A DNA stretch of 64,000 nucleotides from Candidatus Magasanikbacteria bacterium RIFCSPHIGHO2_01_FULL_41_23 (GCA_001782805.1 MFPT01000021.1:10546-74545); one strand, 5' to 3'; counted from the stretch's first letter, positions 193-63,250 are shown. Notes: generated from the sequence alone by a model not told the origin. Program-made: numbers and translations.

Positions 193-3100
193 ATGAACTC
201 GCATCTCCGCTCCATGCTCGGACGACTGCAGTTATTGGCACAGAAAATTTGTCCCGCGTCGGGATCATCTTGGCGCACTCCGTGGATGGTATTTTTTGGT
301 ATATTGTTTTTGGGATTTTTTCTTTTAACCATTTCTCCGGCCAATGCTCAGTTCGAAACTGTAACCAATATTTTTATTATCGGCGCGGCGCATATTATGA
401 TTGTCGTCGCCAATATTGCCATTGGTTTAACTATTTTCTTTTTGCGTTTTTTCATCATGCTGGCCAGTTACAACAATTATATTGATGTTGACGTGGTGCA
501 ATTGGGCTGGATAATGGTGCGGGATGTGGCCAATATGTTTTTTGTCGTCGCGCTGTTGGTCATAGCCTTTGGCACTATTTTGGGTTTGGAAGAATATGAA
601 TGGAAAAAGAATTTGGTTAAACTTATTCTCGCCGCGATTTTAATTAATTTCAGCAATTTGATTTGCCAGCTGCTTATAGATGTTTCCCATGTTTTTAGCA
701 TTACTTTTTTGAATGCCATTTCGGCTACGGCCGGAGGCAATCTGATTAACATGTTCAAATTGGATCAAATAACGGCTTTGGCCGGTGCGGATGATACATC
801 GGGGATTGATATTGAATTGTTGGCCGCGGCTATACCGGCCATGATGTTCGCGCTTATGGCCGCGGCCGCGCTGGGATCATACGTGTATGTTATGGCGGCG
901 CGAGTGGTGGCATTGTGGGCTTTGATTATTTTTTCCCCGCTCGCTTTTATTTTTGGCGTTTTGCCCAAGACCAAAGGATATGCGGAAAAATGGTGGACTG
1001 AATTTAACAATAACATAATTGTCGTGCCGATAATGGTGTTTTTTTTGTGGCTGTCGTTTGCCACGTTGGGTTTGGGTAATATTGCGGAACAAATTCAAAC
1101 TGGTTTGCCCGCGGGTGTCCAGATAGATGGAGCGCAACAAGGTAAAACTGAATATAAGAAGACATCGTTATCATTATCCAAAGTAACCAGTTGGGAAAAT
1201 ATGGCCAGTTTTTTGGTTGCTTTTGCGTTTTTGATGCGCGGCATTCAAGAAACCGAACAAACCGGAGTTACTGGAGCCGGAGCCATCGGCTCGGCCGTGG
1301 ATTTTGCCAAAAAAGTCGGTACCATTGCCAGTGGGTATGCGGCGGGGAGATGGTTGGCGGGGAAGACGAGGGATGGAGTAGTTGGTGGATCCAAATGGGT
1401 GGGCAAAGAACTTGGTGTACATCTGGCCAAACGGGCCGGAGTTTACGATGTTCCCGAGCGAGTCGGTAATTGGTGGAAAGCCAGAGGCGTGGCATTTGAT
1501 AAACGAAGAAGCGAAGGTCCGCTTAGTGGTGTTGTCGATTCAAAAGAAGTAGGAGAAGGTGATCAAACTAAAGATGAAACGAAAAAATTGACCGATGAAC
1601 AAGTTAAGGCTGGTTGGTCAATGAGGTTTGATAGAGAAAAAAATAAAACTGTTGCCGAACAATGGGGTGTATTGAAAGATAAGGATGGAAATCCCAAATA
1701 CAAAAGTGGTTATCAAAAATTTCTCTCTCGTCGTCACGAAAAAATAATCGCTTCTCGCAAGACTTTGGAAAAAACCGAAGGAGAATTTAAAGATAATGAA
1801 GAATTAATGGGGAAGCGTACTGAGGCTCAGTCGTTTGTTACCGGTGCAGAAAGGAGAGAGAATAGAAAATTAGAAAAAGAAGGTTTTGTTGTCAAAGACT
1901 ATGATCGTGTCAAGCGTGGTATGCTTGAAATTGAAGAAGAACGGGCATCAGCAAAAACAGCCGAGTTTAAGAATAGAGGTAAAATGATTGCTCTTGGTAG
2001 CCAACGTCTAAAGGCAGAAGGAGGAAAACCTCTTGGTTTTCAAGAAGGCGGGACAGTTGCCGAGCAAATTGCGGGTCACAAAACCCGAGCGGAATTCTTT
2101 GAATCACGAGTTAACCAAATTCTCAAAACCGCAGAAAGTAAATATAAAGGCAGTGCAGCCGGTAAACGATTTTTGGAAGGAAAAATTCAAGCCGATTTGG
2201 AAATAAAGGCTCAAGAAGCAAAGACTAAAGAATTACAAGCAGGCGCCACGACGAGAATAGCTTTGACCGATACCACTGATGTTTTAGCGCGTACAATAGA
2301 GGCGGAAAAAGCCGCGCATTTAGAAGAACAAAGATTGGCAAGAGTCCAAAAAGCCGAAGAAAGAGAATTTTACAAAGGCGATCATGGCCAAGAAGAATTG
2401 CGTGAAGAAGCGGTTTTGAAAGAACAAATCGCGGCCAGTGAAGCGGGAATAAAAAAAGAAGAGGCTGAAGCCAAACGCGAAGTTGCTGAAGGTACAGGCA
2501 GTGGAGACGAAGCGAAAGAGCGAGAACACCTCTTTAAAGTAGCTCAAGACGAGAAAATCGCGGCGACAAAACAAGCAGGTGTTCGGGAATCTTTAGCGAC
2601 CAGTGTTGAAAAAAAGGCTGAATTGGTCTATGAGACATCAGACCCAGGTAAAGAAGAAAAAGAAAAAGAATTAACTGCCAAAGAAACCATTGCCGCCACC
2701 GAAGGAAAAATAAAGAAAGAAGAGGCTACTAGAAAAGCCGTACTTGCCACAGAAGACAGTAATGAATACAAGTTACAAATGGCGGAGAGGATTGCGGCGG
2801 AAAAAGGCGCAAAGTTGGAAGAGGGGAAGGTCGCGCTTGCAGAAAAAGAGGCCACCAAAGCGTATGTTTCTGGTACAGGTGCAGATACAATTACCCAAAC
2901 CAAAGAAGTTGAATTAAAAACAAAAGCCGAAGACGCGGAAATTAAACAACGTGAAGCCGAGGCAGACAGACAAGCGGCCAATAATTTAAAAGAAGTGTTT
3001 GCTAGAATCAATTTTTCGGAACAAGCAACAAAAGCGGCTGAAGATTTTGTAAAAAATATTAAAGAAGAAGACCTGAGAGATAAATTTAAATCAGCTTCTG

Positions 3101-5001
3101 AGCAAATGAAGGGATGGATGAAATTAGACGCCACGGCTTTGGCCACGGAAATTGAAAAATTTAAGACTGCCGGTCATACTCAAGGAATTGACGCGTATGT
3201 AGTGGCGTTGGGTCAAGCTCAATTGTTAAAAGTAACTACGAGTGATTCCGGTATTCGCCATAAACAAGCCGAGGATGCGGCGTCTGACGGTTTTGTGAAT
3301 AAATCTCGGTATGGAACCACTACTGCCTCAACTGCCTATTCTGATTTTTCCGATACCAAATTAAAGGATTATAAAAAACTGGAACGCACCGCCGCCATGA
3401 AAAAAGCCACCGATGTCCATGCTTTTTTAATGCACCAAAAAGAAAATTTGCCAGCGGGTCAAGAACTTGATCTTGATCAAACAGCGGAATTATATGCTGC
3501 CAGTTCTTATTTACAATCAGAAGCATGGAATGATGATCAGGCGGCGTATACATACTCTATGTTTGAAAAATTACAAAGACATCAAGCCGAAGTAGCGAAT
3601 AAAGGAAGTTCAACTGTCATGAAAACTGATGAAGCAGCACAGTGGACCACTATGGCGAAACAATATACTAGGTTGGGCTGGCTTGATAACAATGTTATTG
3701 ATGCTGGTGGTAATTTTGTATTGGATAATGAGAAAAAAGCAGATGGTACTGATGTCATTGATAAAACAAATGGAAAAGTAGTCAAAAAGGGGAAAGCCAT
3801 TGCCAAAAAATATACACGACAAAAAGCCGCGGATATGCAGAATTTAGCTGTTACAGGCGGTGATGTAAATTTAGTGGTTGCCCATCACCAAATTTCTGAA
3901 GCGGTTGATGCCAATGCTCGGGATGTTGAAAATGCTAAGCTTGAAGCAAGAAGTAGGATTATTGCGGATAAGAAAAGTGCTAATACAACATTAACAGACG
4001 AAACGGCCGCTGCATCGGCGGAAAAAGAAATTGAATCCGCAATGGCAGCTGCGGGTAAAGCTACAGCAAAAAATTATTGGGAATTGGCGGATGTTATTTT
4101 GAAATTAGGAACTAACACAACAGGCATCGTCGATGCTGCTGCTTTGAAAGTACGTTATGAAGAACATTCTGATTTGCTTCAAGACGCCACCAAATCATAC
4201 AAAGGTTTTGCACATGCCACCGGCCATGAAAAATTAGGTGGAAACCAAGGATTTGATGAAGAGGCTGATTCCTATCGTTTTATGACGGTAAGAGAGGGTC
4301 AGGCAGAAGTTCGGGCTGATCGGGTAAAAATGAAAACTCGCCAAATCTTAAATGGAGATCAGTATCATAGTAATGGTGGTGAATTAGATTTGGATACAGG
4401 GATAATTGATAATTTCTTGGAAGACACGCTTAATCTTACTATTGGTAAAATTACCCGATACCTTGATATGGTTGATATGCCTGAACGTTCTTTGAAAGGC
4501 GCGTTCTATTTACATAAAAATGAACAAGCAAAAGTAGTGCAAGGTACGGAAGGTGCTTTAAAAGATAAAAAAGTTGCGGTGTTGGGTGGAAATAAAGCCA
4601 TGCAAAAATTTGAAGCCGATGGTGATGTTGATGAAGAAAGTAAGACAAAGCATATGATGACACGTGGTGTTGTACCGGCTTTAATGTCAGGTCATAGAGG
4701 TTGGGCAGTCGCAGCCAGTAAATTATATGGCGGTCATGTTGTGGAGGCCGACGCTCAAAAAGGGACAATAAATATGCGGGTCGGTAATAAAGAATTTGCA
4801 ACTACGAAGAATGCGGCTGAACATGTTATTACTAATTTGGAATCAGATAAAGATTACTTTAAGGGTAGCGATCTTTATGGTCAAGAAAAAAGAATATTAG
4901 AGGCCATGAATCAGATTATCGCGGATTTTAATTCTGCACCTGCACCTGCATCTGCTGTTGATACTGCTGCTGCTGGTGAAGATGATACTCCTCCTACTTA
5001 A
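193..5001 (+). CDS. Giant polytopic membrane protein: N-terminal TrbL/VirB6-like multi-TM domain (~400 aa) plus a ~1200-aa K/E/A-rich low-complexity or coiled-coil C-terminal extension
   Basis: Uninterrupted 1602-codon ORF. The first ~330 aa carry 6-7 hydrophobic helices in a VirB6/TrbL-like layout. The rest is strongly biased to K, E, A, T and Q with EAK/KEE-type periodicity. It lies in one cluster with the PrgI-like and VirB4-like genes. Confidence 0.55.
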   Translation: MNSHLRSMLGRLQLLAQKICPASGSSWRTPWMVFFGILFLGFFLLTISPANAQFETVTNIFIIGAAHIMIVVANIAIGLTIFFLRFFIMLASYNNYIDVDVVQLGWIMVRDVANMFFVVALLVIAFGTILGLEEYEWKKNLVKLILAAILINFSNLICQLLIDVSHVFSITFLNAISATAGGNLINMFKLDQITALAGADDTSGIDIELLAAAIPAMMFALMAAAALGSYVYVMAARVVALWALIIFSPLAFIFGVLPKTKGYAEKWWTEFNNNIIVVPIMVFFLWLSFATLGLGNIAEQIQTGLPAGVQIDGAQQGKTEYKKTSLSLSKVTSWENMASFLVAFAFLMRGIQETEQTGVTGAGAIGSAVDFAKKVGTIASGYAAGRWLAGKTRDGVVGGSKWVGKELGVHLAKRAGVYDVPERVGNWWKARGVAFDKRRSEGPLSGVVDSKEVGEGDQTKDETKKLTDEQVKAGWSMRFDREKNKTVAEQWGVLKDKDGNPKYKSGYQKFLSRRHEKIIASRKTLEKTEGEFKDNEELMGKRTEAQSFVTGAERRENRKLEKEGFVVKDYDRVKRGMLEIEEERASAKTAEFKNRGKMIALGSQRLKAEGGKPLGFQEGGTVAEQIAGHKTRAEFFESRVNQILKTAESKYKGSAAGKRFLEGKIQADLEIKAQEAKTKELQAGATTRIALTDTTDVLARTIEAEKAAHLEEQRLARVQKAEEREFYKGDHGQEELREEAVLKEQIAASEAGIKKEEAEAKREVAEGTGSGDEAKEREHLFKVAQDEKIAATKQAGVRESLATSVEKKAELVYETSDPGKEEKEKELTAKETIAATEGKIKKEEATRKAVLATEDSNEYKLQMAERIAAEKGAKLEEGKVALAEKEATKAYVSGTGADTITQTKEVELKTKAEDAEIKQREAEADRQAANNLKEVFARINFSEQATKAAEDFVKNIKEEDLRDKFKSASEQMKGWMKLDATALATEIEKFKTAGHTQGIDAYVVALGQAQLLKVTTSDSGIRHKQAEDAASDGFVNKSRYGTTTASTAYSDFSDTKLKDYKKLERTAAMKKATDVHAFLMHQKENLPAGQELDLDQTAELYAASSYLQSEAWNDDQAAYTYSMFEKLQRHQAEVANKGSSTVMKTDEAAQWTTMAKQYTRLGWLDNNVIDAGGNFVLDNEKKADGTDVIDKTNGKVVKKGKAIAKKYTRQKAADMQNLAVTGGDVNLVVAHHQISEAVDANARDVENAKLEARSRIIADKKSANTTLTDETAAASAEKEIESAMAAAGKATAKNYWELADVILKLGTNTTGIVDAAALKVRYEEHSDLLQDATKSYKGFAHATGHEKLGGNQGFDEEADSYRFMTVREGQAEVRADRVKMKTRQILNGDQYHSNGGELDLDTGIIDNFLEDTLNLTIGKITRYLDMVDMPERSLKGAFYLHKNEQAKVVQGTEGALKDKKVAVLGGNKAMQKFEADGDVDEESKTKHMMTRGVVPALMSGHRGWAVAASKLYGGHVVEADAQKGTINMRVGNKEFATTKNAAEHVITNLESDKDYFKGSDLYGQEKRILEAMNQIIADFNSAPAPASAVDTAAAGEDDTPPT

Positions 5002-14783: not shown

Positions 14784-14873
14784 TGGCGGAGAGGGAGGGA
14801 TTCGAACCCTCGAGGGATTTGACTCCCTGCAGCTTTAGCAAAGCTGTACGATCGGCCACTCTGACACCTCTCC
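14784..14873 (-). tRNA. tRNA-Ser (anticodon GCU), class II long variable arm, CCA encoded
   Basis: The reverse complement folds as GGAGAGG..T-arm GGTTCGAATCC..CCTCTCC-G-CCA. Anticodon loop UUGCUAA. Long variable arm and G73 discriminator. Confidence 0.8.
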
Positions 14874-14930
14874 ATTTTTTATTTTTTTTGCTTGCTCTGA
14901 GCGATCCCGACATAGTCGGGAGAGTCGAAG

Positions 14931-15019
14931 GGCGGAGAGATAGAGATTCGAACTCTAGAGGCTCTTGCGAGCCCGGCAGTTTAGTAAACTGCTGCCTTAA
15001 ACCACTCGGCCATCTCTCC
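14931..15019 (-). tRNA. Class II (Ser-type) tRNA with atypical anticodon loop UUACUAA (apparent anticodon ACU); CCA not encoded
   Basis: GGAGAGA-U-GGCCGAGUGGUUUAAGGC-A-GCAGU-UUACUAA-ACUGC-long arm-UAGAG-UUCGAAU-CUCUA-UCUCUCC-G. The body closely parallels the adjacent tRNA-Ser(UGA). Its loop differs from the tRNA-Ser(GCU) loop only by A at position 34. Confidence 0.55.
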
Positions 15020-15094
15020 ATAAATTCTGATATTGTGGGCTTGCCCTGAGCGAGCGACTTGTGGTGAGCGGAGTCGAAACCAAGCGAGTCGAAG

Positions 15095-15183
15095 GGCGGA
15101 GAGAGTGAGATTCGAACTCACGGAGGACTTGCATCCTCAACAGTTTTCAAGACTGTCGCCTTAAACCACTCAGCCATCTCTCC
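15095..15183 (-). tRNA. tRNA-Ser (anticodon UGA), class II
   Basis: GGAGAGA-U-GGCUGAGUGGUUUAAGGC-G-ACAGU-CUUGAAA-ACUGU-long arm-GUGAG-UUCGAAU-CUCAC-UCUCUCC-G. Confidence 0.8.
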
Positions 15184-15282
15184 AGAACTTTATCCTATAA
15201 ACAGAAAAACTATAGCAAAATTAAGTATTTTTCGCAAGTGTATTGTGCCGTGATTTTTGCCATGATATACTCAAGTTGAACT

Positions 15283-37765: not shown

Positions 37766-40063
37766 TCAGCCTGATCCTCCATGATCCTCGGTCGCAATTT
37801 TGTCCTCTTCTTCTGTCAGTTGTTTTCCATGTTCCAAAGGGCATATTTTATAATACCACAAAGCCCGAGCCATGGCAGGATCACTGACGCGGTTGCATTT
37901 AAAGGCTTCGGTAATAGTGGGTTTATTAATACATTTACCTGTGCCTCCACTAGTTATCAATCGAACTCCAGCCTCAAGTCCCGTGTCAGGATTTAGTAAA
38001 TCAGTGACCGTATACCAACGATCGTACATATTAACCGCCCACTCAGAACCAAGTGGACCATTTATCTTTTTTGCTTCAAAACCACCCCCTTCTGGGAAAA
38101 TAGTAATGCCCATAAAAAAACCATGAGAAAATCTCCAATCAATGTCATAGTCTGGTGGATTGCTAAAATCGTTTCCTGTTTTGCCACCATGGTAATGCAA
38201 GTCATCATTTGATTGTCCTCCACCGGTTTTTTTTGGACTGGCAGGGTAATTGTTCCAATATTTTTTTCCACCTAAATCGTACTGAGATTCGTTCATTGGT
38301 GTAAAAGCGACACCTTTATATGTTACACCGGACATTAAAAATTTTTTTCTAGCAAGGACAGGTTTGTTATTATTTTGATAACCCTCATCGCCTCCGAGTA
38401 TTAAAGTTGACGCACCACCCTTTTCATTTCCCGATTCTTTATTGGCCCAAGCCCAGGCGTAACAGGCGTCTATCTTTAATTTTTCGGCAAGGTCAGCGAT
38501 ATTTTGGTTTGTAATTTTTCCGCTTGCCTTAGCTGGAATACTGTTGTGATGAAAATTAGTATCGCTCACCAAAGTACCATTAGAATTCATTTGATTTATA
38601 TATTGCGTAAAATCGGCTTGACGCGCATATAAAACTTTTAAGTTTCTAAATTGAACAAGTTCCGGATTAATGGTAAAGAGAATAACATAAGAAGTTGAGC
38701 TGATTAATAATCCGGTAACTGCTTGCACAATCATATTTTTGCCCGATGACTTGCTGTTTCCACTCGTATCGGGAATCGTAAATAAAAATCCGCCAATTAT
38801 AATCCGAACAAGACAAAAAATTCCGGCAATAACCACTAAATATTTGTAGACTGCGGCCAGATATTCTCCCAGAAAAGGAATATTCAAATAAGTGTTTCCC
38901 AAATCATCGCCACTTAATTCTCCCTCAATAGTTATATCAGAAAAATTAAGGCCGGGGATTTTTATTTTTGGTTGAGGTTTTTGTAATAATTGCCGAAGTT
39001 CATCCTCGGATAATGATGTATTTTTAATGGCGTGCGCAACATCACTTGATGCGGTCGCATCGGTGGCCGGCGCGGTTTTATCAGCCTCGATACTTATGGG
39101 GTATTTTGTTCCTTGTACAGAGCCAACACAAAAATGAAGGGCGTGAGCATCATCAATTCCACCATCATTTTTACATTCCCATGTTTCGTCGGCTGTGGAT
39201 TTGCCATAAGCGTTTTCACAATCAACATTTTTATTACACACGCAAATATTAGCATTTGCTCCATCGAGATCACTGTCTTCACAATCCAATTTATTTGGAC
39301 AATCAGAGTTGCTAACCCAATTTTTACATTGTTTTCCAATTCCATATTCGAGGGCTTTGGGATCAGTAGTTACAACAGGATTGTTTTTTGGAGCAGACGC
39401 AGGCAGAGGTACATCCTTGCCATACGCCGCGCTCATTACCGCTTTGAAAAGTAAAGCATGGCCAGCGTCATTGGTGTGTAGAGCATTATTACCCAAACCA
39501 GTATCAATCGCATCATCGCCGTTTTTGTCAATAAGAGCAGCATAATCAATATAAATATCAACTTTAGTTTTGAACCACGCATTATTTTTTTTGAGATTTT
39601 CACTCCACAGAGGAGTCCATGCGCCCCAACCTTTGAAAGGTTGGGCGCCGACACCAATTATACGCATGCCTTCTTTTTTTGCCTCAGTAATAATCTTATC
39701 TAGATCCGCTTGATTTTTGACTGTAGTATTTTCCAAACCATTTAATCCCGCGTATAATATAAGTTCTTTAAAACCATTATTAGCAACTCCTCCTTGCATG
39801 GTAAATTGTTCTAAAAAATAAGTGGAATTTGTACTAAGTTTGGCGAAACAAGTAAAATTGTAATCAGGCAAAGCTTTCTTAAGTTGCATGACAAAACCAT
39901 TCGTCACATTATTTTTTTCAGGTTTTGAACCAATACAACCATCATCGAACGTTGATGAACCAACAACCGCTACATTAGTTTTGGCCAAGGCTGTTAAAGG
40001 AAAAAAAATAAAAGCAAAAGTAAGAATGATAATTTGTAATGCTCTATACTTCATATTTAACAT
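37766..40063 (-). CDS. Large secreted/membrane protein: N-terminal SGNH/GDSL-hydrolase-like domain, Cys-rich region, two internal TM helices, C-terminal unknown domain
   Basis: Signal peptide MKYRALQIIILTFAFIFFPLTALA. SGNH blocks VAVVGSSTF (Ser), GxND-like and NDAGHAL (DxxH). About 20 Cys in 120 aa. A TM hairpin YLVVIAGIFCLVRIIIGGFLF..NMIVQAVTGLLISSTSYVILFTI. Located next to a DsbA-like gene. Confidence 0.55.
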   Translation of the reverse strand: MLNMKYRALQIIILTFAFIFFPLTALAKTNVAVVGSSTFDDGCIGSKPEKNNVTNGFVMQLKKALPDYNFTCFAKLSTNSTYFLEQFTMQGGVANNGFKELILYAGLNGLENTTVKNQADLDKIITEAKKEGMRIIGVGAQPFKGWGAWTPLWSENLKKNNAWFKTKVDIYIDYAALIDKNGDDAIDTGLGNNALHTNDAGHALLFKAVMSAAYGKDVPLPASAPKNNPVVTTDPKALEYGIGKQCKNWVSNSDCPNKLDCEDSDLDGANANICVCNKNVDCENAYGKSTADETWECKNDGGIDDAHALHFCVGSVQGTKYPISIEADKTAPATDATASSDVAHAIKNTSLSEDELRQLLQKPQPKIKIPGLNFSDITIEGELSGDDLGNTYLNIPFLGEYLAAVYKYLVVIAGIFCLVRIIIGGFLFTIPDTSGNSKSSGKNMIVQAVTGLLISSTSYVILFTINPELVQFRNLKVLYARQADFTQYINQMNSNGTLVSDTNFHHNSIPAKASGKITNQNIADLAEKLKIDACYAWAWANKESGNEKGGASTLILGGDEGYQNNNKPVLARKKFLMSGVTYKGVAFTPMNESQYDLGGKKYWNNYPASPKKTGGGQSNDDLHYHGGKTGNDFSNPPDYDIDWRFSHGFFMGITIFPEGGGFEAKKINGPLGSEWAVNMYDRWYTVTDLLNPDTGLEAGVRLITSGGTGKCINKPTITEAFKCNRVSDPAMARALWYYKICPLEHGKQLTEEEDKIATEDHGGSG

Positions 40064-41989: not shown

Positions 41990-43726
41990 TTAGACGGCGG
42001 ATTGTTGTTTAGAACGTTGTTGTTTTAATGTAGTCAGCAGTGATTGATTTATTATTCTAAACCGTTGTTGAGCCAATTTGGCAATTTGCTGGCTGATATT
42101 TTTTAATTTTTTTCGTTTTTCATCACGTTCTTTTTTCTTTTTTTCCATTTTTTTATCAAGATCTGCAATTTTTAGGTCTACGGCTTTCCTGAGAACTTGG
42201 GGGATATTGGAAGCAGTCCAAACCATGGGCGCAATCGGGACAATGAAGAGAAAAATAATCGTCGCGGCCAGAATTGCGGCTAAAACTTTTATGAGAATTT
42301 CAATTGCCAATAATGTCCAGCTGGCAATGGTTAATGCTTTGTGTTCTCGTTCCAAGGGCTTAAGAAATTCATCGATGGTTTTGATTTCTTTTTGTAATTT
42401 TTTTTTGTCTTGGTTAAGTTGTTCGGCTTTTTTGTCTATCTCAGCGATTAACTGTTTGTTCCGTCGTTCATTAAACTTTTGCATTAGTATACCACGTTGT
42501 TGGAGATTTTGTCCGCTCGTTTGTTGTTGAGTCGCATTTTGGTTTGGATCTGTTGTAGTTTGGTTTTGTGGCTGGCCTGATTGGGAATTTTGATTTTGTC
42601 CCGACGCGTTGGGATTAGTTTGTCCTGATGCTTGTTCTTGATTCTGTCCATTTTGTCCGCGTGGTTGGGGATGGCCGGCATCATCTGTCTTAACCAGTGG
42701 TTCGCCAAGCGAAGCTTGATCGTCTTGGTTGGCAGTCATGGGATTTTTTTCCGGTTCCGGTGGTTTTTCTTCGGGAGTTGGTTCTTCCGGCTTTTTTTCT
42801 CCCTCCGATTCTCTTTCTTTTGCTTTTTCCGGCGCGTCTTCTTTTGATTTGGCGTCGTCCTCTTCTTTTTTTCTCTCTTCATCAGCTGACGGATTTGATT
42901 TGTCTGATTCAGTTTTTCCACCTTCAGGAGTTGGTGCTCCTTGTTTTGTTTTTTCCTGTTCTCTTTCTGGTTGTTTTTCTTCCGGTGTTTCTCCAGGATT
43001 TTCTGCATTAGTTGGAGTTTCAGTCGGAGAAGGAGTTGCTTCCTCTTCTGGTTTTGTTTCGGCTTGTTCAGAATTTGGTGTTGATTCGGCATTTTTATTC
43101 GCGGAACGATTATCGGCTGCTTTATCCGCGCCTTGTTGCATTCGATCTTTTTTTTGTGGAGCCCCTCGACTTCCCTCGACTCCGCTCGGGACAAGTTGCT
43201 CGGGGTAAACTGGTTCGGCTTGATCCGGTTCAACATCAGAATCATCAGGTATTTCTTGGTCATCATTGGCCGCTTCATCTGTTGACAGTGAGTCTGCCGA
43301 ATCTGTTGGATCAGCGCCAAAAGAATTAATTGCATCCGTTGGATTTATGCCACTATCAGGCATTTCCACATTATCATTGGCCGCGCTGTTTATGTTAAAT
43401 TCATCAGCCAATAATTCTTCTGCTTCTTTTTCCGCAATTGTTTCCGCAACCGCATTTGCCACTTCTTGATCCAGCATTTCTTTGGTTTCCATTTCTAAAT
43501 TAGTGTTTGCCGCCACTTGATCCACCATTTGTCGGCCAATTTGGGCAATCAAATCAGTTACTTTAGTCAGTCCTGATCCGCGTATTTCACTGGAGCTGAC
43601 GGTTTTTTTTAAAATATTTTCCGCTTGATTATTTTGGCCGCTCAAATAATCGCCGACTCCTTGGGAAATTGGATCGGGTTTTGCTGGATCTGGTTTACGT
43701 TGGGGTAAAGCCACAGCCGAATTCAA
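41990..43726 (-). CDS. Hypothetical acidic low-complexity protein with C-terminal coiled-coil and TM helix
   Basis: 578-aa ORF with long E/K/P/T/Q-rich disordered stretches. TM helix LAIEILIKVLAAILAATIIFLFIV near the C-terminus. Carries an in-frame copy of the short GC-rich repeat (peptide ..LVPSGVEGSRG..). Confidence 0.5.
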   Translation of the reverse strand: MNSAVALPQRKPDPAKPDPISQGVGDYLSGQNNQAENILKKTVSSSEIRGSGLTKVTDLIAQIGRQMVDQVAANTNLEMETKEMLDQEVANAVAETIAEKEAEELLADEFNINSAANDNVEMPDSGINPTDAINSFGADPTDSADSLSTDEAANDDQEIPDDSDVEPDQAEPVYPEQLVPSGVEGSRGAPQKKDRMQQGADKAADNRSANKNAESTPNSEQAETKPEEEATPSPTETPTNAENPGETPEEKQPEREQEKTKQGAPTPEGGKTESDKSNPSADEERKKEEDDAKSKEDAPEKAKERESEGEKKPEEPTPEEKPPEPEKNPMTANQDDQASLGEPLVKTDDAGHPQPRGQNGQNQEQASGQTNPNASGQNQNSQSGQPQNQTTTDPNQNATQQQTSGQNLQQRGILMQKFNERRNKQLIAEIDKKAEQLNQDKKKLQKEIKTIDEFLKPLEREHKALTIASWTLLAIEILIKVLAAILAATIIFLFIVPIAPMVWTASNIPQVLRKAVDLKIADLDKKMEKKKKERDEKRKKLKNISQQIAKLAQQRFRIINQSLLTTLKQQRSKQQSAV

Positions 43727-57545: not shown

Positions 57546-60500
57546 ATGACTGATTTTGTCCATCTTCATGTCCACTCGCATTATTCGCTCTTGAATGGCT
57601 TAACCAAAATAAAAGCCTTGGTTAAGGCGGCGAAAGCGCGGGGATTTTCCGCTTTAGCATTGACTGATTATGGATCAATGTATGGCGCTATTGAATTTTA
57701 TCAAGCGTGTTTGGCCGAAGGAATTAAACCGATTATTGGATTTGAAGCATACATTGCTCCACGAAGTAGACTTGATAAAGATCCGGCGCATGATTCGACA
57801 TTGTATCATTTAATATTACTCGCGGAAAATTATAATGGCTATAAAAATTTAATGAAGCTGTCGTCGTTTGGCCATTTGGAAGGATTTTTTAATGGGAAAC
57901 CACGCATTGATAAAGAATTGTTGCGGAAATATCATGAAAATATAATTGTTTTGTCCGGACCGATTGAAGGCGAAATTCCCACATTAATAAAAAATGGTGA
58001 GATTGCCAAAGCCAAAGCAGTGGCGCGGGAATATCAAGAAATGTTCAGTTCGACTTCGCTCACCGCGAGTGGATCGGATTATTTTTATTTGGAATTGGAA
58101 GATCATCCGGCAATCTCCGGCCAAATTGAAGTGAATACTAAATTAATTGAATTGGGAAAAGAATTGGGAATTCCGTTGGTGGTAACGCGTGATGTACATT
58201 ATTTAAATCCGGATGATGATGAGGCGCAAGATATTTTGCGTTGTATTGCCGAAGGTTGGCGCGTGGATCAGCCGAATAGAATTGATTATCGCGGCGTTGA
58301 TCGGTCGTTCGCGACTGGCGATGATATTGCCGCGCGTTTTCGGCATGTTCCGGAAGCAATTGCCAATACGATAAAAATTGCGGAGCGTGTGAACATTCAA
58401 ATAGAATTAAACAAATGGCATTTTGCGCCAGTGGAATTACCTCCGGGCAAAACTGCGGACGATGTTTTGGCCGAAGAAGCACATAATCGCGTTACGATTT
58501 ATTTTAAAGAAAAAACGGCTGAACTTACTGAACGTTTGAATTATGAATTGGAAATTATTAAAACAAAAAAATATTCGCCGTATTTTTTGTGCGTGGCGGA
58601 TTTTGTGCGTTATGCCAAAGATCATGGGATTGTGGAATCAACGCGTGGTTCAGCCGCTGGTTCATTGGTGTCGTATGTTATGGGAATTACGACTGTGGAT
58701 CCGATGCGATTTAATTTGCCGTTTGAACGATTTTTAAATCCGTTTCGTCCCAGTCCACCGGATGTGGATACGGATTTTGCCGATGATCGTCGCGATGAAA
58801 TGATTGAATATGTCACGAAAAAATATGGCGCGGATAAAGTGGCGCAAATTATTACGTTTGGAACTATGGCCGCGCGCGCCAGTGTGCGCGATGTTGGTCG
58901 TGCTTTGGGATTCGCGTATTCTTTTTGCGATCAAGTGGCCAAATTAATTCCGCAAGGCGCGCAAGGTTTTCCCATGACGATTGGTCGCGCACTGACGGAA
59001 GAACCGGATTTGAAAAAATTATATGAACAAAACGCGGATGTAAAACGTTTGTTGGATTTGGCGCGAAAAGTTGAAGGCTGTGCGCGGCATACTTCCATTC
59101 ATGCGGCCGGAGTGGTGATTGCGCCGACCGCGCTGATGGATTTTTCGCCCGTGCAATATGAAACCGGTGGCACGCGGATTACCACGCAATATGAAATGAA
59201 ATCCGTGGAAGCGGCCGGAGTTTTAAAAAATGATTTTTTGGGAATTCGCAATTTGGCGATTTTGGGAAACGCGGTGGAATTCGTGAAAAAAACCACGGGT
59301 CAAGAAATTGATATTTATAATTTACCGTTGGACGATGCCAAAGTTTATGAAATGTTGGCGCGCGGAGAAACGATGGGTGTTTTTCAGCTTGGTGGTTCGG
59401 GTATGACGCGCTGGCTAAAAGAACTGAAACCAAACCGGATTGAAGATATTATGGCCATGGTGGCGCTGTATCGTCCTGGACCAATGGAATCTATTCCCGA
59501 ATATATTCGCCGCAAATATAATCCTGAGGCGGTAAAATTTTTTGATTCGCGGTTGGAAAAAATTCTCGGCGCTTCGTATGGATTGTTGGTATATCAAGAC
59601 GATGTGATGTTGACTGCGATCGCACTCGCTGGTTATGATTGGATGGAAGCGGATAAGTTTCGCAAAGCCATGGGCAAAAAAATTCCCGAAGAAATGGCCA
59701 AACAAAAAGAACAATTTTATAAAGGTTGTCAGGAAATAGGCAAAGTAAAAAAAGATATTGTTGATGAAATTTGGCATGCGATTGAACCGTTTGCCGCGTA
59801 TGGGTTTAATAAATGTTTGGTAGGAGAGACTGAAATTGTGGACGCGGCAACCGGAGCAATAAGAACCATCAAGGAAATGTACGAGCAAAAATCGAGGATG
59901 TCGGTATTAAGTTTGTCGGGCTATAAGAAATTAATTAAAAGAAAAATAATTGATATCTATAAAAACGGGAAGAAGCCAGTGTGGGAAATTACTATTCGCA
60001 GTGGCCGGAAAATTACTGCCACGGGCAATCATCCCTTTTTAAAATTTGGCGGCTGGTTCAATTTAGAAAAATTATGTGTCGGTGATTTGATCGCCGTACC
60101 AAGAAAAATTGACTATCGGCCGAGTGCTGATTTAGATTCTAAAAAATTAAAAGTATTGGGCTATTTGTTATCAGAAGGAAATCTCTGTCATCCTTACGGC
60201 GTTTATTTTTATTCTTCAGTCGAGGTAGAAATCCAAGATTTTATTACCGCTGTAAAATCATTTTCTAATTCTAATGTTACGATTAATAGAAGTAAAAGCG
60301 CAGCAGCTGTCTATGTGGGGCAAATCAATCCCAAATTTAGGAACAATTTAATGTTGTGGCTTAAAGAGCTGGGTTTGTATAACAAAAAAGCCACGGAAAA
60401 ATTTATTCCCGAATTTATTTTCAAATTATCACCGGAAAAAATCGCAGTGTTGGTTGGATCGATGTGGCAGGGCGATGGCTGTGTACATGATGACAAAAAT

Positions 60501-62366
60501 GGGCAAATATATTACGCGACCAGTTCAGAAAAGTTAGCTCAGCAAATGCAACACTTACTTTTGCGGTTGGATATTTTGAGTACGATTTATACCAAAAAAT
60601 TTACTTATAGGAATGGCCTAAAAATTGGTTATACGATTAATATCAGCCGTTATAATAACTTGGCCAATTTTGCGCACACGGTGGGTCAACATTTATTGCC
60701 AAACAAAAAAATCATCTTGAATAATATTATTAAAAAAAATAAAATTCTGAATGGCACACTACACACTGGCGTGGCTCGAGGCAGTAAAGATGTTGTGCCG
60801 GCACAAATTTTGGAGTTGATAAGAAAAGAGTTGGGGCAGAAAGGAATAACCATAAAGACAATATCCCAAGAATTGAAAATAGCTGAAAGATTATTTTATC
60901 AAGATACAAAACGGAAAGGCTATTTGCGGGAGACAGTTGGGAAAATCGGCATCTATTTGAAAAGCACTAAATTGTTACAGGAAGCGCGTTCAGAATTGTA
61001 TTGGGACGAAATTGTTTCGATAAAGTCGCGGGGCATGCAAGAAACCTATGATTTGACTGTCCTAGGCGAACATAATTTTGTCGCCAATGATTTCGTGGTG
61101 CATAATTCGCATGCCGCCAGTTATGGCATTGTCGCTTATCAAACCGCGTATCTCAAAGCGCATTATCCGGTGCAGTTTATGACCGCCATTTTGCAAGCCG
61201 AAGCCAGTGATTTGGAAAAAGTGGCGGCCATTGTGTATGAGTGCGGACGCATGGGCATTGAAGTTTTGCCGCCGGACATCAATGAAAGTTTTAAAAGTTT
61301 TGCGATGGTTTCCAAACCCGGACTCCTCGACCCTGCTCAGGGTAAACCCGGTCGGATTCGGTTTGGTTTAAATGCGATTAAAAATGTCGGCGAACATATT
61401 TGTGAAGTTATTTATCGCGAACGCAAAGAACATGGCGCGTATCAATCTCTGGAAAATTTTTTGGAGCGAATTACGGATAAAGATTTGAATAAAAAATCAT
61501 TGGAAAGTTTAGTCGTGGCCGGAGCGCTGGATTGTTTTGGATTTGATCGCAACGTACTTTTTGCCAACAGCGAAAATATGTTATTTTTTTACCGACAAGC
61601 GCGCGACAGGGAATTGACCAAACAAGATTCATTGTTTGCGGCCACGGATATTAGTTTGGATTCCAAAGTAATGCTTAAGCCAGCGCCGAACGCGACGATG
61701 GAACAGAAATTAACTTGGGAAAAAGATTTGTTGGGATTATATTTGTCCGCGCATCCGTTGCATCCATTCGTGGATGCGTTAAAAGGTGTGGTGATTCCTT
61801 TAGCCGAAGTGGAATCTGCGCCGCGCGACAGTTGGGTCGTATGTTTTGGTGTGGTGGAATCCATCAAGAAAAAAATTACTAAAAAAGGCGATATGATGTT
61901 GTTTGTGGTAATTCAGGATTTGTCCGCCACAATGGAACTGTTGGTTTTTCCCAAGACGTACGCGCGCACCAAAGATCTGTGGTTGGAACGCGCGCTGATT
62001 TGTATTGTGGGGAAAACGCCGCGCGAAGAAGGAGAAAATAAAATTTTTGTGGAAAATGCCTATGAATTGCGGCGTGAAACTATTTCCGACTTGGCGCGGC
62101 AACTGGCATTATCCGTAGGGCAGAAATTAAATTCCGACGTTGGTGCCGTGCCCGAAAAATATCTGCGCATTATTTTGTCCGCGGATGAATTACAAACATC
62201 AGCCGAACCAATTAAAACCATTTTGGCCACGCATCCAGGAGATACGACGGTTTATTTGCAAGTAGGAACAGGTACGATTAAAGTGGGAACTAAAGTGAAT
62301 GCGAGCGAAGAACTTTTGTCCGAGTTGATTAAAATTTTAGGAGATGCAAAAGTTGAAATGTTTTGA
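57546..62366 (+). CDS. dnaE: DNA polymerase III alpha subunit (DnaE) interrupted by a full-length intein
   Basis: PHP domain HLHVHSHYSLL. Pol IIIalpha core motif FAAYGFNK / SHAASYGIVAYQTAYLKAHYP is split by the intein. OB-fold at the C-terminus. Carries an in-frame short GC-rich repeat (peptide KPGLLDPAQGKPG). Confidence 0.9.
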   Translation: MTDFVHLHVHSHYSLLNGLTKIKALVKAAKARGFSALALTDYGSMYGAIEFYQACLAEGIKPIIGFEAYIAPRSRLDKDPAHDSTLYHLILLAENYNGYKNLMKLSSFGHLEGFFNGKPRIDKELLRKYHENIIVLSGPIEGEIPTLIKNGEIAKAKAVAREYQEMFSSTSLTASGSDYFYLELEDHPAISGQIEVNTKLIELGKELGIPLVVTRDVHYLNPDDDEAQDILRCIAEGWRVDQPNRIDYRGVDRSFATGDDIAARFRHVPEAIANTIKIAERVNIQIELNKWHFAPVELPPGKTADDVLAEEAHNRVTIYFKEKTAELTERLNYELEIIKTKKYSPYFLCVADFVRYAKDHGIVESTRGSAAGSLVSYVMGITTVDPMRFNLPFERFLNPFRPSPPDVDTDFADDRRDEMIEYVTKKYGADKVAQIITFGTMAARASVRDVGRALGFAYSFCDQVAKLIPQGAQGFPMTIGRALTEEPDLKKLYEQNADVKRLLDLARKVEGCARHTSIHAAGVVIAPTALMDFSPVQYETGGTRITTQYEMKSVEAAGVLKNDFLGIRNLAILGNAVEFVKKTTGQEIDIYNLPLDDAKVYEMLARGETMGVFQLGGSGMTRWLKELKPNRIEDIMAMVALYRPGPMESIPEYIRRKYNPEAVKFFDSRLEKILGASYGLLVYQDDVMLTAIALAGYDWMEADKFRKAMGKKIPEEMAKQKEQFYKGCQEIGKVKKDIVDEIWHAIEPFAAYGFNKCLVGETEIVDAATGAIRTIKEMYEQKSRMSVLSLSGYKKLIKRKIIDIYKNGKKPVWEITIRSGRKITATGNHPFLKFGGWFNLEKLCVGDLIAVPRKIDYRPSADLDSKKLKVLGYLLSEGNLCHPYGVYFYSSVEVEIQDFITAVKSFSNSNVTINRSKSAAAVYVGQINPKFRNNLMLWLKELGLYNKKATEKFIPEFIFKLSPEKIAVLVGSMWQGDGCVHDDKNGQIYYATSSEKLAQQMQHLLLRLDILSTIYTKKFTYRNGLKIGYTINISRYNNLANFAHTVGQHLLPNKKIILNNIIKKNKILNGTLHTGVARGSKDVVPAQILELIRKELGQKGITIKTISQELKIAERLFYQDTKRKGYLRETVGKIGIYLKSTKLLQEARSELYWDEIVSIKSRGMQETYDLTVLGEHNFVANDFVVHNSHAASYGIVAYQTAYLKAHYPVQFMTAILQAEASDLEKVAAIVYECGRMGIEVLPPDINESFKSFAMVSKPGLLDPAQGKPGRIRFGLNAIKNVGEHICEVIYRERKEHGAYQSLENFLERITDKDLNKKSLESLVVAGALDCFGFDRNVLFANSENMLFFYRQARDRELTKQDSLFAATDISLDSKVMLKPAPNATMEQKLTWEKDLLGLYLSAHPLHPFVDALKGVVIPLAEVESAPRDSWVVCFGVVESIKKKITKKGDMMLFVVIQDLSATMELLVFPKTYARTKDLWLERALICIVGKTPREEGENKIFVENAYELRRETISDLARQLALSVGQKLNSDVGAVPEKYLRIILSADELQTSAEPIKTILATHPGDTTVYLQVGTGTIKVGTKVNASEELLSELIKILGDAKVEMF
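59814..61106 (+). mobile_element. Intein (431 aa) with LAGLIDADG/DOD homing-endonuclease domain, inserted in the conserved GFNK|SHAA motif of DnaE
   Basis: Starts with Cys (CLVGETEIVD), ends with ..VVHN, and is followed by Ser (+1). LAGLIDADG-like blocks LKVLGYLLSEGNL and IAVLVGSMWQGDG. The extein junction reconstitutes GYGFNKSHAASY. Confidence 0.85.
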
Positions 62367-62399: not shown

Positions 62400-62606
62400 A
62401 TGTACAATTGGACAGTAGATATTAAAGAATTAAAAAAAGATAAAAAGCAGTATGCCATTTGGAAACTGGAACAGATGGTTAATTTTGGTTTGAACGGTAA
62501 AAAATTAAACAAAGCCGATTTGAAAAAGTACTGGTTACAGTTGAATTTAGATCCTAAAAAGAAAAAGTATCTGTCACTTATTTTATGGCCGGCAAAACAA
62601 TCTTAA
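62400..62606 (+). CDS. Hypothetical small lysine-rich protein upstream of the AbiEii-like gene (possible partner)
   Basis: 68-aa ORF overlapping the start of the next gene by 22 nt. No motif. Confidence 0.3.
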   Translation: MYNWTVDIKELKKDKKQYAIWKLEQMVNFGLNGKKLNKADLKKYWLQLNLDPKKKKYLSLILWPAKQS

Positions 62607-63250
62607 GTGAAAATCAACGAAAATTATTAAAAATAATCGGTAATAATAAAAATATCTGCCAATATTTTTATTTGACCGGGGGCACGGCTTTGGCGGAATT
62701 TTATTTGCACCATCGTCTTTCGGAAGACTTGGATTTTTTTTCCGAAGAAGAAATTGATTCTCAAATCGTATTTGCGTTTCTGAAATCAATTCAAAAATCA
62801 GCCGGAATAAAAAAAATCGATGCCCAACAAAGTTTTAATCGCAATTTATTCTTTTTACATTTGCCAGACGGCGATGTTATTAAAACTGAGTTTACTTACT
62901 TTCCTTTCCCCAGAATTGAAAAGAAAAATAAAATTGACAATTTGTTGGTAGATAGTGTGCTTGATATCGCAGTTAATAAAATTTTTACTATTTATCAAAA
63001 GCCGCGGGCGCGCGATTTCATTGATTTATATTTAATTCTTCAAATAAAAAAATGGGGAATAGCTGATTTAGTTAAAAAAGCCAAAGTAAAATTTGATTGG
63101 CATATTGATCTTCTGCAATTGGCAAGTCAGTTTTTGCAAGCCCGAGAAGTGAAGGATTATCCCAAAATGATTGATCCTTTGAAACCGGAAGTGTGGCAAA
63201 AGTTTTTTGAAGAAGAAGCAAAGAAATTAAAAAATCAAATAGTACAATAA
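62585..63250 (+). CDS. Nucleotidyltransferase of the AbiEii/AbiGii (DUF1814) type IV toxin family
   Basis: YLTGGTALAEFYLHHRLSEDLDFFS matches the AbiEii N-terminal GGTAL..R.SEDIDL nucleotidyltransferase signature. Confidence 0.6.
   Translation: MAGKTILSENQRKLLKIIGNNKNICQYFYLTGGTALAEFYLHHRLSEDLDFFSEEEIDSQIVFAFLKSIQKSAGIKKIDAQQSFNRNLFFLHLPDGDVIKTEFTYFPFPRIEKKNKIDNLLVDSVLDIAVNKIFTIYQKPRARDFIDLYLILQIKKWGIADLVKKAKVKFDWHIDLLQLASQFLQAREVKDYPKMIDPLKPEVWQKFFEEEAKKLKNQIVQ

What the first reader, a model, noticed from the sequence alone, without database searches (positions are those of the whole stretch)
59814..61106. Full-length LAGLIDADG intein in the GYGFNK|SH motif of DnaE
A 431-aa insertion starts with Cys and ends with His-Asn followed by Ser. 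It contains two LAGLIDADG-like blocks. It splits the highly conserved Pol III alpha motif, and the flanks reconstitute GYGFNKSHAASY exactly. Inteins in dnaE at this site are known in other lineages. This copy retains an apparently intact homing endonuclease, so it may still be mobile.
Basis: partly seen in the sequence, partly recalled or inferred. Interest (0 to 1): 0.5.

Follow-up and report, generated by a model that had tools for sequence, protein, structure and literature searches.

The report
Homing-endonuclease intein inside DNA polymerase gene
The replicative DNA polymerase gene (dnaE) of this uncultured Candidatus Magasanikbacteria bacterium is interrupted by an ordinary self-splicing protein element (an intein) that carries its own homing nuclease; the same element sits at the same spot in hundreds of other bacterial species.

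Summary
Window 59814-61106 (+) is an in-frame 431-codon insert in a 1606-aa dnaE ORF (57546-62366). It starts with Cys and ends with His-Asn, and Ser follows it. All intein catalytic blocks and both LAGLIDADG motifs are present. Curated intein and LAGLIDADG models score above their cut-offs. A high-confidence structure model matches solved intein homing endonucleases. The closest orthologous dnaE genes, in the same gene neighbourhood, lack the insert. Only 6 of the 120 closest DnaE proteins carry it, and these fall in three separate clades. The same intein family sits at exactly this site in the best 80 of at least 582 species genomes with a relative, across more than ten phyla. The nuclease catalytic residues are conserved in 79-80 of 80 sequences. 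It is therefore a canonical class-1 intein with a probably active homing endonuclease, and a new member of a known, abundant kind. It is not the cyanobacterial split-intein site, which lies four residues upstream. One modest extra: 106 of 114 intein-free relatives have Ala, a non-nucleophile, at the +1 position. All intein-bearing alleles have Ser (TCN codons in the three with DNA in hand). This fits repeated invasion with co-conversion of the flank. Splicing and cleavage were not tested experimentally. Interest is low.

The parts
57546..59813 (+). dnaE N-extein (DnaE residues 1-756): PHP domain, Pol III alpha core and fingers, ending ...EPFAAYGFNK
   Evidence: Pfam PHP, DNA_pol3_alpha and DNA_pol3_finger. 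NCBIfam DNA polymerase III subunit alpha models match residues 2-758.
59814..61106 (+). Whole intein, 431 aa (Cys1 ... His430-Asn431)
   Evidence: AlphaFold model pLDDT 89.6 and pTM 0.88. Foldseek top hits are full-length intein homing endonucleases.
59814..60113 (+). N-terminal splicing (HINT) region, intein residues 1-100. Block A is CLVGETEIVDAAT with Cys1 at 59814-59816. Block B is GRKITATGNHPFLK with Thr70 at 60021-60023 and His73 at 60030-60032.
   Evidence: TIGR01445 intein_Nterm covers residues 1-76. Residues 4-101 align with the Ssp DnaB mini-intein 1mi8. C1, T70 and H73 are present in 80/80 sequences (79 homologues plus the window). Coordinates.
60135..60713 (+). LAGLIDADG homing-endonuclease core, intein residues ~108-300
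   Evidence: Pfam LAGLIDADG_3, E=5.2e-18 on this stretch. The model shows two helix-strand repeats, H109-121 and H207-219. Foldseek matches PI-PfuI, TliVMA, PI-PkoII, PI-SceI and I-DmoI.
60150..60188 (+). LAGLIDADG motif 1 (KVLGYLLSEGNLC). The putative catalytic Glu121 is at 60174-60176.
   Evidence: E121, G122 and N123 are invariant in 80/80 sequences. Glu121 lies at the C-terminal end of helix 109-121.
60441..60485 (+). LAGLIDADG motif 2 (IAVLVGSMWQGDGCV). The putative catalytic Asp221 is at 60474-60476.
   Evidence: D221 is present in 79/80 and G222 in 80/80 sequences. Asp221 follows helix 207-219.
60699..60986 (+). Helical accessory domain between the endonuclease core and block F (intein residues 296-391). 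Inferred to help bind DNA.
   Evidence: Helices 296-312, 332-342, 347-354, 372-382 and 385-391 in the model. No Pfam family matches. This is the least conserved part of the intein. Related DnaB inteins carry HTH_3/HTH_31 Pfam hits. The function is inference only.
60987..61106 (+). C-terminal splicing region. Block F is YWDEIVSIKSRGMQETYDLTVLGEHNFVAND with Asp413 at 61050-61052. Block G is FVVHN with His430-Asn431.
   Evidence: TIGR01443 intein_Cterm. Residues 388-431 align with 1mi8. D413, H430 and N431 are present in 80/80 sequences.
61107..62366 (+). dnaE C-extein, starting with the +1 nucleophile Ser (TCG, 61107-61109): SHAASYGIVAYQ... It contains the HhH and OB domains and the stop codon.
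   Evidence: Pfam HHH_6 and OB-fold.

Best explanation
Window 59814-61106 encodes a canonical class-1 intein with a nested double-motif LAGLIDADG homing endonuclease. It is inserted in the fingers motif YGFNK|SH of the replicative polymerase DnaE of a Candidatus Magasanikbacteria (CPR/Patescibacteria) bacterium.

Inferred mechanism, taken from the established intein pathway:
1. The 1606-aa precursor is translated.
2. Cys1 performs an N-S acyl shift, assisted by Thr70 and His73 of block B.
3. Ser+1 attacks the thioester (trans-esterification).
4. Asn431 cyclises, assisted by His430 and the block F Asp413, which releases the intein.
5. An O-N shift yields a 1175-aa DnaE with the restored motif AYGFNKSHAASY.

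The freed intein is then predicted to act as a site-specific endonuclease on intein-free dnaE alleles at about ...TATGGGTTTAATAAA|TCGCATGCC.... Double-strand-break repair would copy the intein, together with the flanking Ser codon, into the cut allele (homing).

Shown here: the anatomy, the conservation of all catalytic residues, the fold, the existence of intein-free orthologues, and a patchy but site-specific distribution. Inferred only: actual splicing, nuclease activity and present-day mobility.
For: - Junctions and frame.
- Curated intein and LAGLIDADG models score above their cut-offs.
- The splicing halves align with solved DnaB and RecA mini-inteins, 1mi8 at E=5e-23.
- The model has pLDDT 89.6 and pTM 0.88. 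Its best structural matches are intein homing endonucleases: TliVMA 7qss (E=1.3e-24, TM 0.70), PI-PfuI, PI-PkoII and PI-SceI.
- C1, T70, H73, E121, D413, H430 and N431 are present in 80/80 sequences (79 homologues plus the window). K196 and D221 are present in 79/80. The endonuclease core is as conserved as the N-splicing region, 0.59 against 0.59 mean column conservation.
- Of the 120 closest DnaE proteins, 114 lack the insert (1149-1228 aa) and 6 carry it at the same site.
- The intein-free P0123 lies in the same pheS-pheT-x-DUF7282-dnaE-tsaD neighbourhood as the intein-bearing P0122. The window shares the part upstream of dnaE.
- In a neighbour-joining extein tree the six intein-bearing alleles fall in three clades nested among intein-free ones.
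- The best 80 of at least 582 species genomes carry a full-length, stop-free homologue at YGFN[KR]|C...HN|SH[AS], in more than ten phyla.
- Within the CPR, intein identity does not simply follow host identity. It is about 50% for exteins that are anywhere from 44% to 71% identical. This fits horizontal spread.
- All intein-bearing alleles have Ser at +1, while 106 of 114 intein-free alleles have Ala.
Against: - No experiment: neither splicing nor cleavage was observed.
- No intein-free allele closer than about 78% extein identity was found. The nearest intein relative is only 68% identical and tracks its extein (80%). The element may therefore have been inherited vertically for a long time in this sublineage.
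- dN/dS could not be computed. The DNA of the closest intein-bearing relative was unavailable, and the near-identical cluster members differ at only 4 residues.
- The extein tree is a neighbour-joining tree without support values.
- The lower GC of the intein (0.371 against 0.433) is not mirrored at third codon positions, so composition gives no evidence of recent arrival.
Confidence: 0.9

Rival explanations
1. The intein still splices, but its endonuclease is no longer active or no longer has susceptible targets. In this lineage it would be a fixed, vertically inherited passenger, the late stage of the homing cycle.
For: Intein identity tracks extein identity among the Magasanikbacteria carriers: 68/80, about 50/70 and 76/87. 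No close intein-free allele with Ser at +1 was found near this lineage. Most relatives have Ala at +1, and their target DNA differs at a few positions.
Against: Putative catalytic Glu121 (80/80), Asp221 (79/80) and Lys196 (79/80) are conserved, and the whole endonuclease core is as conserved as the splicing domain, with no stops in the 80 homologues. Degenerating endonucleases normally shrink or lose these residues. The three-clade patchy distribution and the decoupling of intein and host identity across the CPR argue for transfer.
Confidence: 0.25
2. The intein is retained because it has been co-opted as a post-translational switch (conditional protein splicing) that controls maturation of the replicative polymerase, for example through redox-sensitive cysteines. 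This is not exclusive of the main explanation.
For: Novikova et al. 2016 (PMC4760082) argue that the clustering of inteins in replisome proteins, including the Pol III alpha fingers, hints at functional adaptation. The intein has four Cys (residues 1, 88, 125, 223), and Cys125 was invariant in the 9-sequence alignment. For distant phyla the intein is as conserved as the extein, about 40% against about 40%.
Against: Nothing here tests regulation. 114 of the 120 closest relatives do without the intein, so it is dispensable. Conservation of the nuclease residues is better explained by selection for homing.
Confidence: 0.08
3. The insert is a lineage-specific DnaE domain, a pseudogenising insertion or an assembly artefact, rather than an intein.
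For: None found. NCBI annotates the protein only as 'hypothetical protein'.
Against: All intein blocks and the intein fold are present. The frame is open across both junctions. The identical protein is recorded on 14 contigs and under four NCBI accessions. 114 of 120 relatives lack the insert exactly at the junction.
Confidence: 0.01

Closest known systems
Pol III alpha (DnaE) fingers-domain inteins catalogued by Novikova et al. 2016 (PMC4760082). From my memory only, the Thermus thermophilus DnaE-1/DnaE-2 inteins of InBase may belong here.
   Same: Same host protein and the same fingers-domain hot spot (insertion points a-d and g within 75 residues). Class-1 Cys1 inteins. The homologue family found here includes Deinococcota (Thermaceae L070, Trueperaceae L081) at exactly YGFNK|SH.
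   Different: That survey did not list Patescibacteria or Chloroflexi among the Pol III alpha intein hosts. I could not read its figure or supplement to learn which letter denotes this exact site. Identity with Tth DnaE-1/-2 was not tested.
Cyanobacterial split DnaE intein (Ssp/Npu DnaE, 'site a')
   Same: Same conserved motif of the same protein. Same HINT splicing chemistry.
   Different: The split intein is encoded by two genes, has no endonuclease and has Cys at +1. It is inserted after ...AEY and before C-F-N, four residues upstream of the window's site (Y-G-F-N-K|S). This is seen in P0025 and in the native extein Cys+1/Phe+2/Asn+3 (PMC3585056). Sequence similarity to NpuDnaE is marginal, E about 0.004-0.008.
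DnaB helicase inteins (Ssp DnaB, Npu DnaB; NCBIfam PRK07773)
   Same: They are the closest characterised sequence relatives. PRK07773 matches the whole intein at E=2.9e-80, and 1mi8 and 4o1r match at about 1e-22. The block F/G sequence HNFVAND-IVHN is shared.
   Different: The host gene and insertion sites differ (P-loop GK|C...HN|T and DLRESG|C...HN|SIEQD). Full-length identity is only about 28-34%.
Solved intein homing endonucleases: TliVMA (7qss), PI-PfuI (1dq3), PI-PkoII (2cw7), PI-SceI (1vde/1lws)
   Same: Same bipartite architecture: a HINT splicing domain split by a double LAGLIDADG endonuclease. TM is up to 0.70.
   Different: Archaeal or yeast hosts and different host proteins. Sequence identity is 11-22%. 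The accessory domains differ.

Membership tests
Intein (HINT domain, class 1) | Nucleophile (Cys/Ser) as first residue; block A | tested here: met
   Cys1 (TGT, 59814-59816). Conserved in 80/80 sequences.
Intein (HINT domain, class 1) | Block B TxxH motif | tested here: met
   T70-G-N-H73, invariant in 80/80 sequences.
Intein (HINT domain, class 1) | Block F Asp and block G ending in His-Asn | tested here: met
   D413, H430 and N431 in 80/80 sequences. TIGR01443 scores above its cut-off.
Intein (HINT domain, class 1) | Nucleophile (Ser/Thr/Cys) as first C-extein residue | tested here: met
   Ser+1 (TCG, 61107-61109). Ser is at +1 in all 6 intein-bearing Magasanikbacteria alleles and in all 80 loci.
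Intein (HINT domain, class 1) | In-frame insertion in a conserved host protein whose orthologues exist without it, with precise junctions | tested here: met
   114 of the 120 closest DnaE proteins read GFNK-[A/S]HAASYG without the insert. The locus is syntenic.
Intein (HINT domain, class 1) | HINT fold | tested here: met
   The model has pLDDT 89.6. The splicing halves superpose on the RecA and DnaB mini-inteins with rmsd about 1-2 A over about 96-100 columns.
Intein (HINT domain, class 1) | Autocatalytic protein splicing demonstrated | not testable with these tools
   This needs expression followed by western blot or mass spectrometry.
LAGLIDADG homing endonuclease (double-motif, intein-nested) | Two LAGLIDADG motifs, each ending in an acidic residue followed by Gly | tested here: met
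   LGYLLSE121-G and MWQGD221-G. E121 is present in 80/80 and D221 in 79/80 sequences.
LAGLIDADG homing endonuclease (double-motif, intein-nested) | LAGLIDADG fold inserted between intein blocks B and F | tested here: met
   Pfam LAGLIDADG_3 scores 62.9 bits against a cut-off of 22.5. Foldseek matches PI-PfuI, TliVMA, I-DmoI and I-Tsp061I. Position is intein residues ~108-300.
LAGLIDADG homing endonuclease (double-motif, intein-nested) | Site-specific cleavage of the intein-free allele; homing | not testable with these tools
   Only indirect support: a patchy three-clade distribution, strict site specificity across phyla, and intein-host decoupling within the CPR.
Cyanobacterial split DnaE intein (site a) | Intein halves encoded on two separate dnaE genes | tested here: not met
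   A single continuous ORF, 57546-62366.
Cyanobacterial split DnaE intein (site a) | Insertion between ...AEY and CFN... | tested here: not met
   The window's insertion is after YGFNK, four residues downstream.
DnaB intein family (PRK07773-type) | Located in replicative helicase DnaB | tested here: not met
   The host is DnaE. DnaB inteins are only the nearest outgroup, at 28-34% identity.

The most novel reading that the evidence does not exclude
In Magasanikbacteria the ancestral dnaE allele carries Ala (GCN) at the intein's +1 position. An intein cannot splice from that state, so these alleles are in effect non-permissive, or 'immune'. On this reading the intein entered the lineage at least three separate times by homing from Ser-bearing donors, with co-conversion of the adjacent codon to TCN. 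That would make it a natural example of an extein substitution shaping an intein's invasion dynamics in an essential replication gene of ultra-small CPR bacteria.
Probability: 0.3. Interest if true: 0.35.

Novelty: new member of a known kind. Interest (0 to 1): 0.15.

Why it matters
Mainly for annotation. The protein is deposited as 'hypothetical protein', although it is the replicative polymerase plus an intein.

It adds CPR/Patescibacteria and Chloroflexota to the hosts of a very widespread, site-specific Pol III alpha fingers intein, found in at least 582 species genomes.

A naturally contiguous Cys1/Ser+1 intein with an intact endonuclease could be a minor resource for protein engineering or for a new rare-cutting nuclease.

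The Ala/Ser dichotomy at +1 offers a small, testable case study of the homing cycle. Nothing here challenges current understanding.

Tried and rejected
- dN/dS on the endonuclease: the DNA of the closest intein-bearing relative (P0122) was not retrievable. The next closest with DNA (L008, 60% aa identity) is too diverged. The 90% cluster has one full-length variant with only 4 substitutions, 1 of them in the intein, so there is no power.
- Exact published name of the site: Novikova 2016 describes fingers-domain sites a-d and g, but the figure and supplement are not held. Searches for 'DnaE-a/b/c', 'Tth DnaE', and inteins with CPR or Patescibacteria gave nothing specific.
- Phage vector: the IMG/VR scan found only distant relatives (31% identity or less over the full length). 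The 14 whose junctions I read were in other genes, mostly P-loop ATPases. None was seen in dnaE.
- Base composition as a sign of recent transfer: the intein GC is 0.371 against 0.433 for the extein, but GC3 is similar (0.39 against 0.385 and 0.445). I rejected this as evidence.
- Helical domain 296-391: no Pfam match even at E<=1, so calling it an HTH is only an inference.
- The opposite-strand ORF 59415-59888 overlapping the junction was not analysed. I assume it is spurious because it lies inside conserved coding sequence.
- The rival 'conserved DnaE domain' is rejected (see rival explanations).

Full report
**1. The observation**

A single ORF runs from 57546 to 62366 on the + strand and encodes 1606 aa. 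Translating 59814-61106 gives 431 codons with no stop, CLVGETEIVDAAT...HNFVANDFVVHN.

In the full translation the insert lies between ...WHAIEPFAAYGFNK and SHAASYGIVAYQTAYLKAHYP.... The DNA junctions are AAT AAA|TGT TTG and CAT AAT|TCG CAT.

The only slip is that the restored motif is AYGFNKSHAASY, not GYGFNK...

**2. Is it an intein?**

Sequence models:
- Pfam gives PHP, DNA_pol3_alpha, DNA_pol3_finger and HHH_6 on the flanks. On the insert it gives Intein_splicing (E=4.8e-26) and LAGLIDADG_3 (E=3.5e-17).
- NCBIfam DNA polymerase III alpha models align to residues 2-758 and resume after the insert. The intein_Nterm and intein_Cterm domain models pass their curated cut-offs. The best whole-insert match is the intein part of an intein-containing DnaB model, PRK07773 (E=2.9e-80).
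- Against solved structures, the N- and C-terminal parts align to the Ssp and Npu DnaB mini-inteins (E about 1e-22) and the Mtu RecA intein. The middle aligns to the VMA and PI-PkoII intein endonucleases.

Structure:
- An AlphaFold model built on a nine-sequence alignment is confident (pLDDT 89.6, pTM 0.88).
- Its best Foldseek hits in the PDB are full-length intein homing endonucleases: TliVMA (E=1.3e-24, TM 0.70), PI-PfuI, PhoVMA, PI-PkoII and PI-SceI. The sub-domains match mini-inteins and free-standing LAGLIDADG enzymes such as I-DmoI.

Catalytic residues. In an alignment of the window with 79 homologues:
- These residues are invariant: Cys1, Thr70 and His73 (block B), Glu121-Gly122 (end of LAGLIDADG helix 1), Asp413 (block F), His430 and Asn431.
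- Lys196 and Asp221 (end of LAGLIDADG helix 2) are present in 79 of 80.
- The endonuclease core is as conserved as the N-terminal splicing region. Mean column conservation is 0.59 for both.

**3. Host and relatives**

The spliced 1175-aa extein finds an identical 1606-aa database protein, P0121. It is from Candidatus Magasanikbacteria bacterium RIFCSPHIGHO2_01_F..., is recorded on 14 contigs and under four NCBI accessions, and is annotated 'hypothetical protein'.

Of the 120 best DnaE hits, nearly all of those that carry a source name being Magasanikbacteria or Patescibacteria, 114 are intein-free (1149-1228 aa). Six carry a 431-435-aa intein at the same junction.

The intein-free P0123 (78% extein identity) lies in the same pheS-pheT-x-DUF7282-dnaE-tsaD neighbourhood as the intein-bearing P0122. 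The window shares the part upstream of dnaE. These are orthologous loci with and without the element.

In a neighbour-joining extein tree the six carriers fall into three groups, each nested among intein-free alleles:
- P0121 and P0122.
- P0185, P0196 and P0223, with the intein-free P0146 among them.
- P0167, next to the intein-free P0143.

Intein identities among carriers (68, about 50, 76%) run parallel to extein identities (80, about 70, 87%) but are lower.

**4. The site in other lineages**

In 79 of the 80 best loci the homologue is a stop-free, full-length intein of 421-465 aa at YGFN[KR]|C...HN|SH[AS] of DnaE. For L045 only a partial match was returned and its N-junction was not resolved, but its C-junction is the same. 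Two of the loci sit at the homologous YGFPE|...|SHAASF of a DnaE2-like paralogue.

The hosts span many Patescibacteria classes, Chloroflexota, Gemmatimonadota, Actinomycetota, Armatimonadota, Deinococcota, Proteobacteria, Planctomycetota, Acidobacteriota, Omnitrophota and Bacteroidota.

Novikova et al. 2016 counted 116 Pol III alpha inteins and described a fingers-domain hot spot (sites a-d and g within 75 residues), with site a being the cyanobacterial split intein (PMC4760082). That split site is ...AEY|CFN (P0025; native Cys+1/Phe+2/Asn+3 in PMC3585056). It lies four residues upstream of the window's site, so this is a distinct though neighbouring site.

**5. Mobility**

The evidence is indirect:
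- The nuclease residues and core are conserved.
- Presence among close relatives is patchy.
- Across the CPR, intein identity to the window stays at 45-52% while extein identity ranges from 44% to 71%. For distant phyla the intein is as conserved as the polymerase, about 40% for both. This is easier to explain by horizontal spread than by pure vertical descent.

Against recent mobility:
- The nearest intein-free allele is only about 78% identical.
- No polymorphism data exist.
- Third-position GC shows nothing foreign.
- No phage-borne copy of this allele was found.

**6. A small extra**

Of the 114 intein-free relatives, 106 read GFNK-A-HAASYG (Ala at +1) and 8 have Ser. All six carriers have Ser.

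At the DNA level, the three carriers with DNA in hand use TCG or TCA. That is one transversion from the GCG/GCC/GCT of their intein-free neighbours. The one intein-free Ser allele with DNA uses AGT.

Because splicing needs a +1 nucleophile, the association itself is expected. What it implies is either repeated entry with co-conversion of the flanking codon, or loss followed by reversion from Ser to Ala. With Ala so dominant and the carriers falling in three clades, repeated gain is the more parsimonious reading. The tree has no support values, so this remains a hypothesis.

**7. Verdict**

This is a textbook bifunctional intein (class-1 splicing domain plus LAGLIDADG homing endonuclease) in a known intein hot spot of DnaE.

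Both the observation and the interpretation are supported. Novelty is limited to a new, unannotated member in a CPR host. Interest is low.

Noticed in passing
window 61107-61109; relatives P0123-P0240, L001-L007: 106 of 114 intein-free Magasanikbacteria DnaE alleles have Ala (GCN) at the intein's +1 position, and only 8 have Ser. All 6 intein-bearing alleles have Ser, and the three with DNA in hand (the window, L003, L004) use TCG or TCA. The one intein-free Ser allele with DNA uses AGT.
   Followed up: partly
L084 3001-4263; L086 3001-4269: The same intein family sits at the homologous position of a DnaE2-like paralogue (YGFPE|C...HN|SHAASF) in a gammaproteobacterial and a Kofleriaceae genome. 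This suggests the endonuclease or intein has crossed between paralogues.
   Followed up: no
window 62585-63250 (+): An AbiEii-type toxin-like ORF (Pfam E=1.3e-17), in a low-GC stretch (0.28-0.33), lies directly downstream of dnaE. Relatives have tsaD there. It is possibly an inserted toxin-antitoxin or abortive-infection module.
   Followed up: partly
window 60699-60986 (+), intein residues 296-391: A helical domain of about 95 aa lies between the LAGLIDADG core and block F. It has no Pfam match and is the least conserved part of the intein. Related DnaB inteins carry HTH_3/HTH_31 hits, so it may be an accessory DNA-binding module.
   Followed up: partly
window 14784-15184 (-): Three tandem tRNA-Ser genes. 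ARAGORN calls one with the unusual anticodon ACT.
   Followed up: no
window 193-5001 (+), 37766-40063 (-), 41990-43726 (-): Large ORFs (1602, 765 and 578 aa) with no Pfam family at E<=1e-5.
   Followed up: no
window 57546-62366 (database entry P0121): The public NCBI records (OGH64139.1 and three others) name this DnaE-plus-intein protein only 'hypothetical protein'. This is an annotation gap.
   Followed up: yes
L010 (CAYJXK010000001.1): The contig is labelled 'uncultured Gammaproteobacteria' but encodes a DnaE whose extein is 66% identical to the window's and whose intein is 52% identical. It is probably a mis-binned or mislabelled Patescibacteria contig.
   Followed up: no
P0025 (Okeania sp. 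DnaE fragment): A single cyanobacterial DnaE fragment shows three intein junctions: ...VVVHN|C, LLRR|C...FIVHN|C, and the split N-intein after FAEY|C. This illustrates the fingers-domain intein hot spot.
   Followed up: no
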